This document shows, one piece after another, positions 1 through 6,000 of a stretch of DNA of 64,000 nt (within the stretch, counting starts at the first letter, position 1; each line of letters starts with the position of its first letter). The stretch spans positions 31,166-95,165 of the forward strand of contig CAWHFJ010000009.1 in NCBI GenBank assembly GCA_963828495.1, written 5' to 3'. Source of the stretch: Candidatus Omnitrophota bacterium. GTDB taxonomy: Bacteria; Omnitrophota; Gorgyraeia; Zapsychrales; Fredricksoniimonadaceae. Made by a program: the position numbers.

Positions 1-3000
1 CAGCCCAACTTCAACGCAAGTGTGTAAACCTTGACTATTTGATCATAATTGCGGGGACTTAACGTCAGTTTGATCTCGATGGCCTGGTCAGGAAAACGCC
101 TTTTTACCTCTCGCATAGTGTGGACCGCCTTGCGGAAAGCCCCGGCTCCCCGCAACGCATCGTTAATTTTTTCCAATCCATCAAGGCTAATATTTAACTT
201 GAAACGCAAATGCCGGTTTCTCTGCACAAAGTGCACTATTTTATCTTTCAGCAGTCCATTGGTAGTGATACATTTAAAACTCCCCGGGTACATTTTTTCT
301 ACAAGATCTACGATCGCCTGCAGATCATCCCGCAGGAATGGCTCTCCCCCGGCCAAAGAGATATCGTAATCTTTGCCATATATCTGATAGCCTTTTTGGA
401 CAACTTTATCCGAGAGAATTCGGCTAATATCATCAAGACCAAGATCCGCACGACGGCCTGATCGATGCCACATGTCACAATGGACGCATCGACCGTTACA
501 CTTATCCGTAATGATCCAATTAATGGATTTCAGGCCCATTATTTCTTTTCCGATGTCTTCCATCCCCAAATATCTTGCAAGAATTACAAACCCTGTTATT
601 ATTTTTAGCGATGGAACGTCCTGTTCTCCCGCTAGAAATCGTTATTGAGATCACCGGCAGATGCCGGCTGCTTTGTCCTTACTGCACCCGTCGCAGAACC
701 GCCGACGCCCCCTTAAAAGACATCAAAGCAACACTGGATGAAGCCGCAAGTCTTGGCATTAAGGTCGTTCGCATCACCGGTGGAGAGCCCCTCCTGCATC
801 CGGATATCGCAACGATCCTCACTTATGCCAAATCAAAAAAATTGGCCGTCATTCTCAACACTGCCGCAGAGAACATCAGCCCTGCCCTCATGAAGACCAT
901 CATCACCAACGTCGACGCGGCACTTGTCTCTTTGCAAGGACATAACGAGAAGGCCAACGCCTCTTATACCCGTTCAAAGTTTTCTTTTCTTGATAAAATT
1001 AAAAATATTTTCCTCTTAAAGACCTATGTACCGACCTTGTGGCTGGGGACAGTCATTACCCCCGCTATGACGCGGTCTTTTGCAAAATTTGTTCCGCTGA
1101 TCAATACAATTAACCCCTCGGCCTGGATCCTGCTGCGTCCCATCAGCGGCTTGAATAAGGACCTAAAAAAAATGGACATCCCCTTCTACCGTGCCCTTAT
1201 ACTTCAAATCATGAAAGCCCGCCAAAAAAATATTAACGTCTTTATTGCCAACCCCATTCCCCTGTGTATCATAGGGGATCTGAGGATAGGCCAAGAAGCC
1301 TGCTTTGGCGCCAAATTCGACAACGGTCATGCCCGTATCGTGCGCAGTGCCCAAGGATTTTTTAAACCAAGCTACTTTTTAGAAACAAACTTAGGGGCCA
1401 CGATTAAAACGGCCTGGGGACATCCTTTTCTACGGGAACTTAACCGCACGGATTTTCTGCCAAACTTATGTCAACGCTGTCCTGTGCTTGACACTTGCCG
1501 CGGCGGATGTCGTGCCATGGCCCTTCACACCCACCAAACGGTCTTGGCGCCGGATCCGTTATTTGATCCGGCTATCGCCCAACAAGCCCTATCAAAGCCT
1601 TATCTAAAACATCCCTGCCCGTAAACCACTCCTTAGGGATTTTTGAGCTGACTTTCTGACTAATCGTGGCCTCTTTAACCGCTCTTGTCAGAGTGTTCGC
1701 GGTTAGCTCTTGAATAGATAAAATCTTAGCCCCAATCATTTCTTTTAACATGACAGCCCTGGCTGGCTGCTCATGAAACGACATCGATCCATAACCCTCA
1801 AAAGGAATAACCACTGCTTTTTTCCTGTATTTAAGCAACATCACCGAGGTGTGATAGGACGCCACCGAAACACAGACGTCACTCGTCCTTATCAATCCCT
1901 CATAATTACCCACGGCCCTGAGCAACGCCAAATTATTAACCTTCTTTTTGGCGACCAGTGTTGAAAAGAAATGCCACTCCTGCGGTGTCGTCGACGGTCC
2001 TGCAACTACGGTCAAATAATATTCTTCCCCCAAGAGATCGCTGGCACGAACAGCCTGAGCGATCAGTTTAGGATAATACGCTCCCCCGCCCCGAAGAACT
2101 GCCACCCGGCAAGCGCCTTGGGGAACAGATGGTTTAGAAAGATGGGTATTTTCGTCCTCACGTACCACCTCTTGCCGGGGCAAAAGATACCCCGCGAATA
2201 TAATCTTTCGCGCATTTCTTTTAAAGAAATCTAAATATCTTTGCCTATCATAGGCTCGGGCAAAAGAATTAGCAATAAGGTCTTTCTCCAGAGCCGGTGA
2301 GAAAATGATAATCTGTTGATATAATTTACATATCTTCTGACGCCATTCATTATGGGCTCCTGTTAATAATGGATATCCTGCGATGGCCCATACAGTGGCG
2401 CCTTGCAAGGATACTTGAACCAAGGACGGAAGCAATTCATGACGGCATTCCTCACGGCCCAAAGGGAAAAATTCTGTTATAAAAAGATCCGGTTTTTGAA
2501 AGGTAACAATATCCCTACACGCCCGGCTACGCTCACCGGCATCGGCTCCTGCCCCATGGATCGATTCCCTAAAATTACGACGATCCACCCATGTCCCCGG
2601 TAATGAATAGACTTTCCCTAGTTGATCTATTTTGGCCTGGGGCTGCGGCATACCCGCCTGAATAAAAAAAAGGTTCCCTTGCGGAAACCTTTTTCTAAAA
2701 ACCTCACCCACCGCCATAACGCGGGAGGTATGGCCAAAACACTCATAATGAGAAAAATAAATACCTGCTTTAAAACAAATTTTACTGCGCATTGACTGGC
2801 GGCTTAATAATTCTCCCCCAACATCGCGGCTCTCTTATATAGTTAATAGGATGAATGCGTCGTGATATTGGTGTGCGCGGCGCAATTAGGCGTCGGGCTA
2901 CCAGGAGTAACCGTATTCGTATGGCTTGTAGTGTCCCCGGACGAAATATCTGTCATGGCACCTACTACTCCCAACGCGGCGACGGTTGCCAATCCAACCT

Positions 3001-6000
3001 TTAAAATGGTCTCCTTGCTGACAAAACCGTCCTCATCTTTCATCAACTCACCAAGAGACCTAGTCATCGGGGTCGCTTTTTTAACGGCCTTACTTTTTAT
3101 TTTCTTTTTCATAAGGGGCTCCTTGTGTCCAACGTTGAAAAATCTCAGCGTATTTGTTGTCACCCAACAGATAGGAAAAAACTAATCTGAACTGATGCGT
3201 CAAAATCTGCTGCAGGCGCGAATCCCCCTTGGGGATAATATTCTTCTCCACAGCGTAATTCACTACAGGATCTATGCCTCGCCAGGGGCTGTAAACCGAA
3301 CGATAATTCCACAGATCAGAACACCCGGCAGTTAATAGATACAGTAGATTTCCCTTATTAAGCATGTCGTCATAATTTAAATCCATGATACTCCCCAACC
3401 GAAAAATATTATCTTCTAACATCCTTGCTTCATCGGTAGGGTAACACCCACCATCCGGCGCGTACGCCATCACTGCGCGAGCAGCCCCGCAGGGATTCAT
3501 CATATCCACATAACCTGAATCTCTCTTTAACAAAACCTTGGTCAAAATGGTCCTGGCCGTCCGCTCGCTTAAATGAGAGCCGGATAAATTTAACTTCATA
3601 ATATACGCCATCGCCTTGGTATAAAACACATTAAATTCTTCTGCCGTATACCCGATATCTTCCCAGCAAGAACAAGCGTACCCTATTCTATTAACCGGCC
3701 TTAAAGCAATCTCCCCTTGCCCCAAACGCAGGTACTCATCAACAATTCTCTCAGGATGTGCTAACGAATGTCTGGTAATAGTCGGTAACAGGTGGATCTT
3801 ACGCCCAAATGCCTTTGAGAAATGCGTGATTTTCTCAACCACCTGGGCATGCGTCCCTTGCCCGTCAGCAAACATCTTGTTTTTATCATGCACATCTGCC
3901 GGACCGTCCAATGACGTACACACATCAACATCATGGTCTACTAAAAAACGCATTTTCTCATCATCCATAAGCAACAGATTGGTCACCAGAACAATGTTAA
4001 GATTCTTCCCTAATGTGTTGAACTTACGCGCATGCTCGGTCAAAAATTCAACCACCGGCCAATTAAGCAAGGGCTCTCCCCCTTGAAACTCCAGCGTCAC
4101 TGACTTGTTACGCACATCGAAAAGGTATTGCAAAACGCGACTGGCCGTCTCAATGGACATATCCTCAGCAGAAGACCCTCCCCGGGCATGACAATAAGAA
4201 CAATGGAGATTACACCGTTTTGTTACAACTGCAATATGAAGACTTGTATCTGTAAACAGATTCGCATTTAAGTTCCTGTACCCCTCAATAACGCGGCGTA
4301 TATTATCCTCATCTACGATCAATCCCCGTTCCAACAAACGATTAAATAAAGCGCCTCCTTCCAACACGCGCAGGCTGTGCAGTTGGCGGAACTCTTGTTC
4401 ATTCAAAGCGTCCCAACATCCCATCATGTTGGTCACCAAATATTTATCATTGATTTTTTCGCAATTATACGGAAGTATGGAGGCACAAACGGTTGTTGTC
4501 ATAGAAAAATGCTTTGTTATTTCTTCTTCTTAGATGCTGTCTTTGCTTTCGGGGCTGTTTGTTTTTCTTCCGCCTCAAGCTCCTTGATCAAATTCTCGAT
4601 CTCTTTTTCTTCTGCCTCTTTGACAATTGACGGGGAAGCTGAAAAAAGAGCCCGTTGCAACAAAATTTTCATATTCTCTGCATTGATCTTCAAGCTGCTA
4701 AAATAATGCGCATAATTAAGCAGCTCATCGGAAAATTCCAATGCCAGCTTTTGCAGGTCTTGGGCACCATTTTTAGGCTTAAGCCAAACGGCGACTAAAT
4801 CCTTCTTTTCTTCCTCAAGCCTGACATGGGCCCGATCCATAAAAGCATATCCGGAAGAATGAACAGACTGTAACGGATAAACCTTCAAATCAACCGGGAC
4901 TTTAATCCAATCGTCTACTTTTTCAAATTTTGCTACCATAAATATTCCTCCCAGAAATGTATCATTAACTTGAAAAGTATACCACACCCCCAAAGTATTC
5001 TACAATCTAATTTTTCAGTTTGCCAGTTAGCTTCGATTGTTTTCGACCTTGGTAAATTTTGGATTTACTTTTATACTTTCTAAAATCCCATAGCCCCCTC
5101 CATCCATTACAAACCAGCGCCCTCCAAGAATAGTTAGAACATCCGGCCCTGCGCCTCTCATGCCTAACGGGGACAACCTTGAATCGAAAACCATGCCATT
5201 GAACCCAACTGGTCATAAAACAATGACCGTTCTCCCCGAAAGGGAATCCGTCGAAAACTCTGCGCCGGAATATCTTTAAAGAACACCCGGCATCCCTAAT
5301 ACGATCGCCCAAAAAAATAAACCGGCAAAAAAAAGCCAGCCATGACCCCATGCACCTGGCCCAGCTATCCTGCCGGCTGACCCGAGATCCCACCACATAA
5401 TCAAAGTGATCCTTATCTTGCCATAATTTAAGTAATTCTTCCGGGGGATTTTGAAGATCCGCATCCATCATAGCCACCCATTCCCCGCGGCTGGCATCCA
5501 ATCCTTCTTTCAGGGCCGCAGACTGCCCTCTCCATTGCTGACGGGCAATAACCTTCATATAAGGATACTCCCCCGCCAGATCATTTAAAATGTCCAGAGA
5601 CTTATCTGTGCTGCCGTCATCCACATAAATAACCTCATGCTGACCCGGTAATAATTTCAATACGCAGTCCAGGCGGTCTTGAAGCAAACGTAAAGACCCT
5701 TGTTCATTCAATACAGGAATAATAACCGAACAGTCCATGTCTCTAAAATCTAGATAGGGAATAAACGGCAAAACGAGTATCCCCTTGTGTCCACTGTTTG
5801 ACCACAACGGCCTTACCCTTCTGTTTTATTAAAGAAACCGATTCCTGACATCTTCTCTGTGAAAATATGTCATCGATCAGATAAACTTTACGGGCCCTCT
5901 TAAAAGCCGCTTTCCTCCATAATGGTTCCTGCAAGAACCACCCTATATCCGTGGCCATAAAGGACGGCAAAGCGCTTGTAAATGTCTCCGGGAAACAAGC

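What the first reader, a model, noticed from the sequence alone, without database searches (positions are those of the whole stretch)
1..5807. Cluster of three radical-SAM enzymes, a small Ser/Thr/Pro-rich peptide gene and glycosyltransferases (candidate peptide-modification locus)
Divergent rSAM genes at 1-563 (-) and 575-1624 (+) are paralogues with CxxxCxxC and C-terminal Cys clusters. On the minus strand a GT2 (5007-5738), a 158-aa unknown, a 470-aa rSAM with a ~110-aa pre-cluster N-terminal extension (possible RiPP recognition element) and C-terminal Cys pairs (3090-4502), an 89-aa peptide gene with a strong RBS (2843-3112) and a GT-B-like gene (1572-2792) follow with minimal spacing. An rSAM with an N-terminal extension plus an adjacent short ORF is the hallmark layout of rSAM-dependent RiPP systems. 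The accompanying glycosyltransferases could add sugars (glyco-RiPP) or mark the peptide as a small glycosylated membrane protein.
Basis: partly seen in the sequence, partly recalled or inferred. Interest (0 to 1): 0.75.

Follow-up and report, generated by a model that had tools for sequence, protein, structure and literature searches.

The report
HxsC-less His-Xaa-Ser peptide-maturation cassette
The locus is a stripped-down Omnitrophota version of the known His-Xaa-Ser (HXS) radical-SAM system, in which one radical-SAM enzyme and a small helper protein probably modify an 89-residue exported peptide; it may be an easier system for working out the unsolved HXS chemistry.

Summary
The core, 2843-4993 on the minus strand, is a His-Xaa-Ser (HXS) cassette.

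- **158-aa "unknown":** this is HxsD.
- **470-aa rSAM:** this is HxsB. It scores 366.5 bits against TIGR03978, E 2e-109, matched end to end.
- **89-aa ORF:** this is a sub-threshold relative of the HxsA3 repeat peptide.

The order HxsD, HxsB, peptide recurs in about 35 Candidatus Omnitrophota genomes. The peptide gene has an AAGGAG ribosome-binding site and overlaps the end of hxsB.

A predicted structure gives HxsB an N-terminal RRE-like β3α3 domain. Its best structural match is the sactipeptide synthase CteB. Only 1 of the 7 canonical SPASM cysteines survives.

HxsC is essential in the E. coli antiphage HXS system. It is absent from the whole 64-kb window and from the window's clade, but present in scattered deeper Omnitrophota lineages.

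The peptide has no peptidoglycan-binding domain and no basic residues in its tail. It ends in a family-conserved H-x-S-Y.

The GT-B gene and the convergent SPASM rSAM are frequent neighbours (18 and 20 of 38 loci). The GT2 is not conserved. The two left-hand rSAMs are related only at superfamily level.

Verdict: a new variant of a known kind, and the RiPP-like reading is essentially right. Glycosylation is unproven. Interest is moderate.

The parts
4517..4993 (-). hxsD-like gene. The ORF is 158 aa from a TTG start; the probable true start is ATG at 4939, giving 140 aa.
   Evidence: TIGR03976 HxsD, E 3.6e-6, 27.2 bits against a cut-off of 50. All 22 aligned relatives hit TIGR03976, best E 1.3e-18. 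Homologues at 81-95% identity carry Pfam PF27806 (HxsD), and several are named HxsD by JGI. It sits directly upstream of hxsB, or with only HxsC between, in 32 of 33 loci with upstream sequence. AF2 model has pLDDT 74.7 and no significant PDB fold match.
3090..4502 (-). hxsB-like radical-SAM maturase, 470 aa. It has an RRE-like N-terminal domain (residues about 8-78), an rSAM core (C97/C101/C104) and a SPASM-like C-terminal fold that has lost its cysteine ligands.
   Evidence: TIGR03978 at 366.5 bits (cut-off 370), E 2e-109, model positions 2-466 of 466. Orthologues at 50-95% identity are all Omnitrophota, and many are named HxsB. AF2 pLDDT 82.8, with β3α3 at residues 12-78. Foldseek top hits are CteB 5wgg (E 4e-21), anSME, TigE, ChlB and SuiB. 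The CxxCx5C SPASM motif present in outgroup HxsB is replaced in all Omnitrophota sequences.
2843..3112 (-). Precursor peptide gene, HxsA3-like, 89 aa. It has a Lys-rich N-terminus (+5), the conserved KDEDGFVSKETILK motif, an 18-residue hydrophobic segment, and a 36-residue His/Ser/Thr/Asn tail (SHTNT...C...AHTNITTHSSY).
   Evidence: NF038309 HxsA3, E 1e-3, 18.9 bits against a cut-off of 65. All 25 family members hit it, best E 2.9e-13, but none reaches the cut-off. Found next to hxsB in 34 of 36 informative loci. D26, E27, G29, L37, K38, G40, T43 and Y89 are invariant. 30 of 36 end in [HF]-x-[SN]-Y. 193 homologue clusters are all named "hypothetical protein".
3119..3124 (-). Shine-Dalgarno AAGGAG for the peptide gene, lying inside the 3' end of hxsB
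   Evidence: Read directly. There is a 6-nt spacer to the ATG at 3112. The hxsB stop is at 3090-3092, so the two genes overlap by 23 nt.
1572..2792 (-). GT-B glycosyltransferase (GT28/MurG-like C-terminal domain), 406 aa. It is a conserved downstream neighbour whose role in the system is unproven.
   Evidence: Glyco_tran_28_C, E 0.0028 for the window protein and best 1e-10 in 13 of 16 orthologues. Present within 10 kb in 18 of 38 loci. The PDB profile search gave only weak hits: a glycosyltransferase at E 9e-4 and MurG at 0.09.
575..1624 (+). Convergent SPASM-type radical-SAM enzyme ("rSAM2"), 349 aa, with no RRE. Its 3' end overlaps the GT-B 3' end by 53 nt.
   Evidence: Radical_SAM, E 5e-14. 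It aligns at full length to NirJ2 and PqqE-type SPASM models at 62-66 bits. A C-terminal CQRCPVLDTCRGGC motif is present. Orthologues occur in 20 of 38 loci, mostly convergent downstream. It co-occurs with HxsC-like genes in L015, L026, L030 and L033, so it is not a simple HxsC replacement.
1..563 (-). N-terminal 187 aa of a further radical-SAM gene ("rSAM3"), cut by the window edge. It is on the same strand as the cassette.
   Evidence: CNGRCVHC motif. Only generic rSAM hits. It is 80% identical to the N-terminus of a 618-aa double-rSAM protein that follows the cassette in L001.
5007..5807 (-). GT2 glycosyltransferase, ArnC/PgfS-like polyprenyl-phosphate sugar synthase type. Probable start at 5738. 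It is a non-conserved neighbour.
   Evidence: Glycos_transf_2, E 2e-29. ArnC model 104.8 bits and PgfS 85.7 bits, both far below their cut-offs. No orthologue in L001-L012 or L047. A different GT2 is present in L081.
5943..7275 (-). PMT_2-family GT-C membrane glycosyltransferase, split by a frameshift near 6675. It is either a pseudogene or an assembly indel.
   Evidence: Two overlapping ORFs, 6652-7275 and 5943-6821. tblastn with intact homologues from L029 and L034 switches frame from -3 to -1. Those homologues hit PF13231 PMT_2, E 2.9e-10 and 2.3e-5.

Best explanation
Region 2843-4993 (-) is a streamlined His-Xaa-Ser (HXS)-type radical-SAM peptide-maturation cassette, hxsD-hxsB-hxsA3-like, specific to Candidatus Omnitrophota.

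**Proposed mechanism** (the gene content, synteny, motifs and predicted fold come from the tool results cited below; every functional step is inferred)
1. The 89-aa precursor is translated from a strong ribosome-binding site that overlaps the end of hxsB.
2. Its conserved N-terminal motif (KDEDGFVSKETILK) is bound by the RRE-like N-terminal domain of HxsB, with HxsD as an accessory protein.
3. HxsB uses its single CxxxCxxC [4Fe-4S]/SAM site to make a radical-mediated covalent change in the C-terminal His/Ser-rich tail. It probably has no auxiliary clusters.
4. The most likely target is the family-invariant terminal H-x-S-Y. This follows by analogy with the +8 Da change mapped to the last HxS repeat of E. 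coli HxsA.
5. The Lys-rich N-region and the 18-residue hydrophobic segment then act as a signal peptide or signal anchor. The modified tail ends up outside the cytoplasmic membrane.

HxsC is indispensable in E. coli but has been lost here. The GT-B and the SPASM rSAM2 downstream are frequent neighbours that may tailor the peptide further, but this is unproven. The GT2 and PMT_2 pair upstream is a variable neighbour.
For: - **Component identity.** HxsB: TIGR03978, 366.5 bits, E 2e-109, full length. HxsD: TIGR03976. HxsA3: NF038309. Family-wide, 25/25 peptides hit HxsA3 and 22/22 HxsD-like proteins hit TIGR03976. Close HxsD homologues carry Pfam PF27806.
- **Synteny.** D-B adjacency in 32/33 loci and a peptide gene next to the cassette in 34/36, across HxsB identities of 43-95%.
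- **Coupled translation.** AAGGAG and a 23-nt overlap.
- **Peptide family.** Deeper members have overt HxSHxSHxS tails (for example L028, L036, L024). A profile also retrieves HGSHGSHGS peptides next to HxsB paralogues in Elusimicrobia.
- **RRE and fold.** β3α3 at residues 12-78 with pLDDT above 90. CteB, anSME, TigE, ChlB and SuiB are the top fold matches.
- **Leader/core pattern.** The N-terminal half is invariant, the tail is variable, and Y89 and the terminal H-x-S are invariant or nearly so.
- **Loss of HxsC.** An HxsC profile finds HxsC4-like genes (174-213 bits) between D and B in L015, L017, L024, L026, L030 and L033. It finds remnants in L016. In the window it finds only generic rSAM hits of 42-60 bits. 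The HxsC-positive loci are scattered in the HxsB tree.
- **Published biology of the canonical system.** rSAM-dependent maturation, N-terminal processing and periplasmic export of HxsA (PMC13128918).
Against: - No chemistry or expression data exist for any Omnitrophota member.
- The window peptide scores far below the HxsA3 cut-off and has only one strict H-x-S (HSS). Its other two His sit in H-T-N.
- HxsB is 3.5 bits under its curated cut-off.
- HxsB has lost 6 of 7 SPASM cysteines, so its chemistry may differ from canonical HxsB.
- In E. coli the modification is attributed to an HxsC-HxsD complex, and HxsC is missing here. HxsC could still lie outside the 64-kb window.
- The hydrophobic segment could be a membrane anchor rather than a cleaved signal peptide. 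No signal-peptide predictor was available.
- The HxsD model shows no RRE-like fold and has no significant structural match, so its role is unknown.
Confidence: 0.65

Rival explanations
1. It is a working antiphage HXS defence system that acts like the E. coli one. A matured, periplasmic HxS-repeat effector blocks phage DNA entry.
For: Three of the four canonical components are homologous. The canonical system is a demonstrated defence system with an exported, rSAM-matured HxsA (PMC13128918). L001 has an integrase, methyltransferase, restriction enzyme and Vsr island about 5 kb upstream.
Against: - HxsC, which is essential in E. coli, is absent.
- The peptide has no peptidoglycan-binding domain. 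Its tail has no Lys or Arg and a net charge of -2. The published model depends on basic HxS repeats binding DNA.
- The window context is housekeeping: pyruvate kinase, enolase, an FtsH-like protein and an MFS transporter.
- The cassette looks vertically conserved across a phylum rather than patchy.
- PADLOC gave only generic viperin-type rSAM hits.
- Almost nothing was found in viral contigs.
- The published survey places 99.7% of HXS systems in Pseudomonadota.
Confidence: 0.12
2. This is the first reader's extension, which adds to the best explanation rather than excluding it. The peptide is also glycosylated, making it a glyco-RiPP or small glycopeptide. The enzymes would be the conserved GT-B in the cytoplasm and/or the GT2 plus PMT_2 pair, which would act via a polyprenyl-phosphate sugar on the exported Ser/Thr-rich tail.
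For: - GT-B lies within 10 kb in 18/38 loci, and directly after the peptide gene in the window and L007.
- In L029 a GT4 domain is fused to the HxsC-like rSAM immediately after the peptide gene.
- PMT_2 genes lie near the cassette in the window, L007, L010, L029, L034, L036 and L081.
- The tail has 16 Ser or Thr in 36 residues, and an N-[IV]-[TS] sequon is common in the window clade.
Against: - The neighbouring glycosyltransferases are not orthologous between loci.
- The GT2 is absent from the 13 closest genome loci.
- L081, at 95% HxsB identity, lacks the GT-B next to the peptide and has a quite different neighbourhood.
- Omnitrophota genomes are generally rich in GT and rSAM genes and fusions (bioRxiv 10.64898/2026.06.07.730766), so co-location could be background.
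- The PMT_2 gene in the window is frameshifted.
- None of the glycosyltransferases resembles known peptide S- or O-glycosyltransferases of glycocins.
Confidence: 0.25
3. The cassette is a decaying relic. After losing HxsC and the SPASM cysteines it no longer modifies the peptide, and the small ORF is simply a small membrane protein or is not expressed.
For: HxsC is lost, with remnants in L016. The SPASM cysteines have eroded. The window contains frameshifted genes, PMT_2 and enolase.
Against: - All three genes are intact and strongly conserved. HxsD is 81-95% identical across more than 100 clusters, HxsB is 50-95% identical, and the peptide has invariant motifs.
- The rSAM cluster cysteines and the GGE motif are invariant.
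- The ribosome-binding site and gene overlap are preserved.
- This level of conservation across a phylum indicates purifying selection.
Confidence: 0.05

Closest known systems
Canonical HXS antiphage system, HxsD-HxsB-HxsC-HxsA (Haft & Basu 2011 in silico; Li et al., Nat Commun 2026, PMC13128918)
   Same: It has homologous HxsB and HxsD and a His/Ser-rich substrate encoded in the same operon. D precedes B. The substrate has an N-terminal export-type segment. The conserved last H-x-S motif parallels the modified SHRSS, which is the last repeat in E. coli.
   Different: - No HxsC is present, so the order is D-B-A instead of D-B-C-A.
- The substrate is 89 aa rather than about 200 aa. It has no peptidoglycan-binding domain, no basic residues in the tail, and degenerate repeats (HTN, HTN, HSS).
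- HxsB lacks the CxxCx5C SPASM cysteines that canonical HxsB has (C399/C402 in E. coli).
- HxsD is about 40 aa longer, with a Glu/Lys-rich tail.
- The host phylum is Omnitrophota, whereas 99.7% of surveyed systems are in Pseudomonadota.
- The genomic context is housekeeping.
NCBIfam variant models HxsA3 (NF038309), HxsC4 (NF038332) and HxsD_rel (NF038315)
   Same: The peptide family aligns end to end with the 81-position HxsA3 model, including the leader. Deeper Omnitrophota loci carry HxsC4-like rSAMs at 112-175 bits.
   Different: Every Omnitrophota member scores below the curated cut-offs: at most about 47 against 65 for HxsA3, and at most 175 against 500 for HxsC4. This is a separate, uncurated subfamily. 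In the window clade the HxsC4-like gene is gone.
RRE-rSAM-SPASM RiPP maturases such as CteB (sactipeptide), SuiB and PapB, and the related anSME
   Same: Predicted architecture and fold. CteB 5wgg aligns over 472 columns, E 4e-21. The precursor gene is adjacent and the precursor has a leader/core layout.
   Different: Sequence identity is only 18%. Six of seven auxiliary-cluster cysteines are missing. The core peptide has a single Cys and is rich in His, Ser and Thr, so thioether chemistry of the sacti- or ranthipeptide type is unlikely to be the main reaction.

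Membership tests
His-Xaa-Ser (HXS) system | HxsB-family radical-SAM maturase (TIGR03978) | tested here: met
   366.5 bits, E 2e-109, model 2-466/466. This is 3.5 bits under the curated equivalog cut-off of 370, so homology is certain but equivalog status is borderline. Orthologues at 78-83% identity are named HxsB by NCBI and JGI.
His-Xaa-Ser (HXS) system | HxsD small protein (TIGR03976 / PF27806) encoded next to HxsB | tested here: met
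   Window protein: E 3.6e-6, 27.2 bits (cut-off 50). 22/22 relatives hit, best E 1.3e-18. Homologues at 81-95% identity carry PF27806. It lies directly upstream of hxsB.
His-Xaa-Ser (HXS) system | HxsC radical-SAM enzyme (TIGR03977 / HxsC4) paired with HxsB | tested here: not met
   An HxsC profile built from canonical loci gives only generic scores of 42-60 bits to the three rSAMs of the window. True HxsC-like genes in L015, L017, L024, L026, L029, L030 and L033 score 174-213 bits (confirmed by NCBIfam). HxsC is absent from all 13 closest loci. It cannot be excluded elsewhere in the genome.
His-Xaa-Ser (HXS) system | Substrate protein with tandem His-Xaa-Ser repeats (HxsA / HxsA3 models) | tested here: inconclusive
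   HxsA3 at 18.9 bits against a cut-off of 65. 25/25 family members hit but none passes. The window tail has H-T-N, H-T-N and H-S-S, so only one strict HxS. Deeper family members have 4-9 HxS/T units.
His-Xaa-Ser (HXS) system | HxsA with signal peptide plus peptidoglycan-binding domain; gene order D-B-C-A (PMC13128918) | tested here: not met
   The peptide is 89 aa with no Pfam domain. The order is D-B-A. A charged N-region plus an 18-residue hydrophobic segment is present, but no peptidoglycan-binding domain.
His-Xaa-Ser (HXS) system | Antiphage activity by blocking DNA entry | not testable with these tools
   This needs phage challenge assays. Indirect indicators are negative: no basic residues in the tail, housekeeping context, no specific PADLOC hit.
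rSAM-dependent RiPP system (RRE-rSAM-SPASM maturase plus precursor) | Adjacent precursor peptide with conserved leader and variable core, conserved in synteny | tested here: met
   34/36 informative loci. The leader has invariant D26, E27, G29, L37, K38, G40 and T43, and the tail is variable.
rSAM-dependent RiPP system (RRE-rSAM-SPASM maturase plus precursor) | RiPP recognition element (PqqD-like β3α3 wHTH) in or beside the maturase | tested here: met
   AF2 model: strands 12-17, 20-25 and 30-33, then helices 35-42, 51-59 and 68-78, with pLDDT above 90. The whole-length fold match to RRE-bearing CteB covers 472 columns. This is a prediction only. No Pfam PqqD hit was found.
rSAM-dependent RiPP system (RRE-rSAM-SPASM maturase plus precursor) | SPASM/twitch domain with auxiliary [4Fe-4S] cysteine ligands (Cx9-15Gx4C ... 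Cx2Cx5Cx3C ... C) | tested here: not met
   The fold is retained, but only C338 of the seven canonical cysteines is present. The CxxCx5C triad is replaced by W/Y/W-type residues in all Omnitrophota members, while outgroup HxsB sequences keep it.
Glycocin-type or other glycosylated RiPP | A dedicated peptide glycosyltransferase conserved with the precursor | tested here: inconclusive
   GT-B is present in 18/38 loci and a GT4::HxsC-like fusion occurs in L029. However, the GT2 is not conserved, the neighbours are not orthologous, and no similarity to SunS/ThuS-type enzymes was seen.

The most novel reading that the evidence does not exclude
Omnitrophota have evolved a minimal two-protein HXS maturation machine, consisting of HxsD and an RRE-bearing HxsB that lacks auxiliary clusters. 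On its own it installs the still-undefined His/Ser radical modification on the terminal H-x-S-Y of a small exported peptide.

The variable neighbours (GT-B, PMT_2 with GT2, extra rSAMs, arylsulfotransferases) would then decorate that peptide. The result would be a phylum-wide family of surface or periplasmic modified, possibly glycosylated, His-rich peptides. Their role would be something other than blocking phage DNA, for example metal binding or host-cell interaction in these ultra-small bacteria.
Probability: 0.25. Interest if true: 0.7.

Novelty: new variant of a known kind. Interest (0 to 1): 0.5.

Why it matters
The chemistry of the HXS modification is unsolved. It appears as +8 Da on an S-H-x-S-S motif. 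The E. coli system has resisted in vitro reconstitution because HxsA is insoluble and four proteins are needed (PMC13128918, Discussion).

A natural variant with a soluble-sized 89-aa substrate, a single rSAM enzyme with its own RRE, one helper protein and apparently no auxiliary clusters would be a much simpler object for reconstitution. It would also be a natural test of which components are really needed.

The variant also indicates that HXS-type systems are widespread and apparently vertically conserved in Omnitrophota, outside Pseudomonadota. There they carry a non-basic peptide without a peptidoglycan-binding domain. This argues that the family's function is broader than blocking phage DNA entry.

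On the practical side, the peptide genes are annotated only as "hypothetical protein" in all 193 homologue clusters. Current HxsA models miss them.

Tried and rejected
- **PADLOC scan of seven proteins.** It returned only generic viperin-type rSAM similarity and no defence-system assignment.
- **Exact-sequence look-up of the window's peptide and HxsB.** Neither is on record, so I could not read beyond the left edge of the window. I used the 95%-identical P0001 locus instead.
- **HxsD as a discrete RRE.** The AF2 model (pLDDT 74.7) is β-β-α-β-β followed by long helices. Foldseek against the PDB gave nothing below E 0.1. Weak, non-significant resemblances to Rpb11/Pcc1-like proteins and type III secretion chaperones appeared. 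The idea is rejected as unsupported.
- **rSAM2 or rSAM3 as a replacement for HxsC.** Both give only generic scores to HxsC profiles. rSAM2 co-occurs with true HxsC-like genes in four loci. Not supported as a one-for-one replacement.
- **The 202-aa HSSG-repeat protein (8752-9360) as the "real" HxsA.** It has no HxsA, HxsA3 or Pfam hit, only low-complexity matches. Rejected.
- **PDB sequence and profile searches for the GT-B.** Only a weak glycosyltransferase hit (E 9e-4) and MurG (E 0.09) were found, so the donor and acceptor cannot be assigned.
- **Promoter and terminator scan.** There is no convincing terminator after the peptide gene and no decisive promoter.
- **IMG/VR scan with the HxsB profile.** One partial relative at 36% identity was found. 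There is no evidence of phage carriage.
- **Literature.** No paper in the library describes HXS in Omnitrophota or HxsA3.

Full report
**1. What is there**

On the minus strand, running from high to low coordinates:
- a frameshifted membrane protein (7275-5943)
- a GT2 (5807/5738-5007)
- a 158-aa ORF (4993-4517)
- a 470-aa radical-SAM protein (4502-3090)
- an 89-aa ORF (3112-2843)
- a 406-aa GT-B (2792-1572)

A 349-aa radical-SAM gene on the plus strand (575-1624) converges on the GT-B. A third radical-SAM gene on the minus strand (563-1) is cut by the window edge.

The peptide ORF has AAGGAG 6 nt upstream of its ATG and starts 23 nt before the stop of the 470-aa gene. Other intergenic gaps are 13-50 nt, so this looks like one operon.

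**2. What the core is**

NCBIfam models identify the three core genes.
- **470-aa enzyme.** It matches HxsB, the His-Xaa-Ser system radical-SAM maturase (TIGR03978). The score is 366.5 bits, E 2e-109, aligned over positions 2-466 of 466. That is 3.5 bits under the curated cut-off.
- **158-aa ORF.** It matches HxsD (TIGR03976, E 3.6e-6).
- **89-aa ORF.** It matches the HxsA3 repeat-peptide model (NF038309, E 1e-3).

The two weak hits become solid at the family level.
- All 22 aligned HxsD-like relatives hit TIGR03976, best E 1.3e-18. Homologues at 81-95% identity carry Pfam PF27806 "HxsD".
- All 25 aligned peptides hit HxsA3 end to end, best E 2.9e-13. None reaches the 65-bit cut-off.

Database relatives of the HxsB-like protein at 50-95% identity are all from Candidatus Omnitrophota metagenome-assembled genomes (MAGs). 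Many are already named HxsB.

**3. Conservation elsewhere**

A scan of species-representative genomes returned 80 loci. I analysed them by tblastn and profile searches in a script.

Among the window plus 37 Omnitrophota-type loci:
- HxsD lies directly upstream of HxsB, or with only HxsC between them, in 32 of 33 loci that have upstream sequence.
- A peptide-family gene lies next to the cassette in 34 of 36 informative loci. It usually overlaps or abuts the hxsB stop.

The peptide alignment shows four regions:
- a Lys-rich N-terminus
- an invariant core motif, (K)DE(D)GFVSKExILKxGLxT
- a hydrophobic stretch
- a variable His/Ser/Thr/Asn tail

Thirty of 36 peptides end in [HF]-x-[SN]-Y. Deeper-branching members have obvious HxSHxSHxS tails, with up to 9 HxS/T units in L028.

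The window clade has a degenerate version: SHTNT...C...AHTNITTHSSY. A profile of the family also retrieves HGSHGSHGS...RGGWC peptides next to HxsB paralogues in Elusimicrobia. These share the leader-like hydrophobic region. The small ORF is therefore a genuine member of the His-Xaa-Ser peptide superfamily and not a chance ORF.

**4. How it differs from the canonical system**

The HXS system was predicted in silico in 2011. In 2026 it was shown to be an antiphage system in E. coli (PMC13128918). That paper reports:
- the gene order D-B-C-A in 99.6% of systems
- 99.7% of systems in Pseudomonadota
- an HxsA of about 200 aa with a signal peptide, five basic HxS repeats and a peptidoglycan-binding domain
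- HxsB, HxsC and HxsD all required
- an HxsC-HxsD complex
- a +8 Da change on the last repeat (SHRSS)

I recovered that canonical layout in Aeromonas (L068) and used its HxsC to build a profile.

*HxsC.* True HxsC-like genes score 174-213 bits. Their best NCBIfam match is HxsC4 and their second is HxsC. They sit between D and B in L015, L017, L024, L026, L030 and L033. In L029 one sits after the peptide gene, fused to a GT4 domain. L016 retains 41- and 61-aa remnants.

In the window and its 13 closest loci, D abuts B. The whole 64-kb window has no HxsC-like ORF, only generic hits of 42-60 bits. In a neighbour-joining tree of HxsB, the HxsC-positive loci are scattered. This implies an ancestral D-C-B-A arrangement followed by repeated loss.

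*Auxiliary-cluster cysteines.* Outgroup HxsB sequences from Aeromonas, Tahibacter, Elusimicrobia and L041 carry the SPASM CxxCx5CGxC motif. Every Omnitrophota HxsB has replaced it. The window protein keeps only C338 of the seven canonical cysteines.

*The peptide tail.* It has no Lys or Arg and a net charge of -2. This does not fit the electrostatic DNA-binding model proposed for E. coli HxsA.

**5. Structure**

The AF2 model of the HxsB-like protein has pLDDT 82.8 and pTM 0.87. It shows three strands followed by three helices at residues 12-78 with pLDDT above 90. That is the topology of a RiPP recognition element (RRE), the leader-peptide-binding domain of RiPP maturases.

Foldseek against the PDB ranks CteB first, E 4e-21 over 472 aligned columns. 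CteB is a sactipeptide synthase built as RRE-rSAM-SPASM. Next come anSME, TigE, ChlB and SuiB. The test for SPASM is positive for the fold and negative for the cysteines.

The HxsD model (pLDDT 74.7) has no significant structural neighbour. It is not recognisably an RRE.

**6. The neighbours**

- **GT-B.** A GT28/MurG-like GT-B, found within 10 kb in 18 of 38 loci.
- **rSAM2.** The convergent SPASM rSAM, found in 20 of 38 loci. It co-occurs with HxsC-like genes, so it is not simply a substitute for HxsC.
- **Cys-rich secreted protein.** Thirteen related loci carry a gene for a Cys-rich secreted protein of about 250 aa. In twelve of them it lies between the peptide gene and the position of the GT-B gene; in L007 it lies about 7 kb downstream. 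The window has no copy.
- **GT2 and PMT_2.** The GT2 is ArnC/PgfS-like. Its upstream partner is a PMT_2 GT-C enzyme, broken by a frameshift near 6675. Neither is orthologously conserved.
- **Closest relative, L081 (95% HxsB identity).** Its flanks are very different: Asn-synthase-like, GT2, PMT_2, arylsulfotransferase, a small 292-aa rSAM, then D-B-peptide, then a B12-rSAM and a second arylsulfotransferase.

The core D-B-A is therefore fixed. The surroundings vary and are rich in glycosyltransferases, further rSAM enzymes and other enzymes that could tailor a peptide.

This pattern fits tailoring. It also fits the general abundance of GT and rSAM genes in Omnitrophota. The two left-hand rSAMs are only 28% identical over 98 residues.

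**7. Most likely mechanism**

The gene content, synteny, motifs and predicted fold come from tool results; every functional step is inferred.
1. The precursor is made in excess from its strong ribosome-binding site.
2. Its conserved leader motif docks on the RRE of HxsB, helped by HxsD.
3. HxsB uses its single radical-SAM cluster to modify the His/Ser tail. The most probable site is the conserved terminal H-x-S-Y, by analogy with the last-repeat modification in E. coli.
4. The +5 N-region and the 18-residue hydrophobic segment direct the tail across the membrane, as either a cleaved signal peptide or a signal anchor. Deeper family members have A-x-A-like sites directly before the first His.

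The function of the product is unknown. Phage defence of the E. coli type looks unlikely for three reasons: there is no peptidoglycan-binding domain, there are no basic residues in the tail, and the surrounding genes are housekeeping (pyruvate kinase, enolase, FtsH-like, MFS). Metal binding or a cell-surface role are open possibilities.

**8. Verdict**

The RiPP-like interpretation is right in kind, but the system is a lineage-specific variant of the already named HXS system rather than something unclassified.

It fails the membership test for the canonical four-gene HXS defence system. HxsC is missing, the substrate has no peptidoglycan-binding domain, and the repeats are sub-threshold. It very probably still works like one at the maturation step.

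No paper in the searchable library describes HXS in Omnitrophota, HxsA3 or HxsC-less cassettes. All 193 peptide homologue clusters are annotated "hypothetical protein".

I rate it a new variant of a known kind, with moderate interest (0.5). Its main value is as a simpler model for solving the HXS chemistry, and as evidence that HXS-type maturation is used beyond Pseudomonadota and probably beyond phage defence.

Noticed in passing
window 8752-9360 (-): A 202-aa protein with a signal-peptide-like N-terminus. It carries SSGQSSGQSSGQSSGHSSGHSSGHSSGYSSGH repeats, which formally contain His-Xaa-Ser units, followed by a Trp/Pro/Tyr-rich segment. It has no HxsA, HxsA3 or Pfam hit, only low-complexity matches.
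   Followed up: partly
window 5943-7275 (-) and 19261-20531 (-): Two genes are each split into two overlapping ORFs in different frames. One is a PMT_2 glycosyltransferase, with the frame switch near 6675. The other is enolase, as ORFs of 264 aa and 159 aa meeting at about 19740. These are either pseudogenes or indel errors in the assembly.
   Followed up: partly
window 23661-26975 (+): A 1104-aa FtsH-like protein with three AAA domains followed by a Peptidase_M41 domain. Normal FtsH has one AAA domain.
   Followed up: no
L029 11766-13841: A 691-aa fusion of a GT4 glycosyltransferase (Glycos_transf_1 / Glyco_transf_4) to an HxsC4-like radical-SAM domain. It is encoded immediately after the HxS peptide gene. 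This is the strongest hint that sugar transfer is coupled to this system.
   Followed up: partly
L001 11685-12452 and orthologues in L002-L006, L008-L010, L012, L018, L047; L007 18799-19578: A signal-peptide-bearing, Cys-rich protein of about 250 aa with no family hit. In these loci it sits between the peptide gene and the position of the GT-B gene (L001 and the short L008 have no GT-B there). L007 has a copy about 7 kb downstream. The window has none.
   Followed up: partly
L081 6898-8451 and 13503-14849: Two arylsulfotransferase (PF05935) genes flank the D-B-peptide cassette in the closest relative (95% HxsB identity). The peptide family ends in a near-invariant C-terminal Tyr, so Tyr sulfation is conceivable. 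This is pure speculation.
   Followed up: no
L016 9576-9904: Two ORF fragments of 41 and 61 aa between hxsD and hxsB match the HxsC profile. They look like a decaying hxsC.
   Followed up: partly
L001 12562-17766: A 618-aa protein made of two radical-SAM domains is followed by a 1108-aa fusion that contains a GT4-type glycosyltransferase region (residues about 440-726) and a C-terminal radical-SAM domain. An N-terminal GT-B-like domain in the fusion is my reading of the sequence and was not tested. The window's 1-563 fragment is the N-terminus of the 618-aa protein's orthologue.
   Followed up: partly
L002 5498-5806, L022, L035, L019; L031 428-4742: Several loci carry two peptide genes. L031 has an exact tandem duplication of hxsD-hxsB, which could be real or an assembly artefact.
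   Followed up: no
L001 345-4234: An integrase, a C5 DNA methyltransferase, a putative restriction enzyme and a Vsr-like endonuclease lie about 5 kb upstream of the cassette in L001. These assignments are read from the translated ORFs; no family search was run on them. This mobile or restriction-modification island has no counterpart in the first 30 kb of the window, the part I examined.
   Followed up: no
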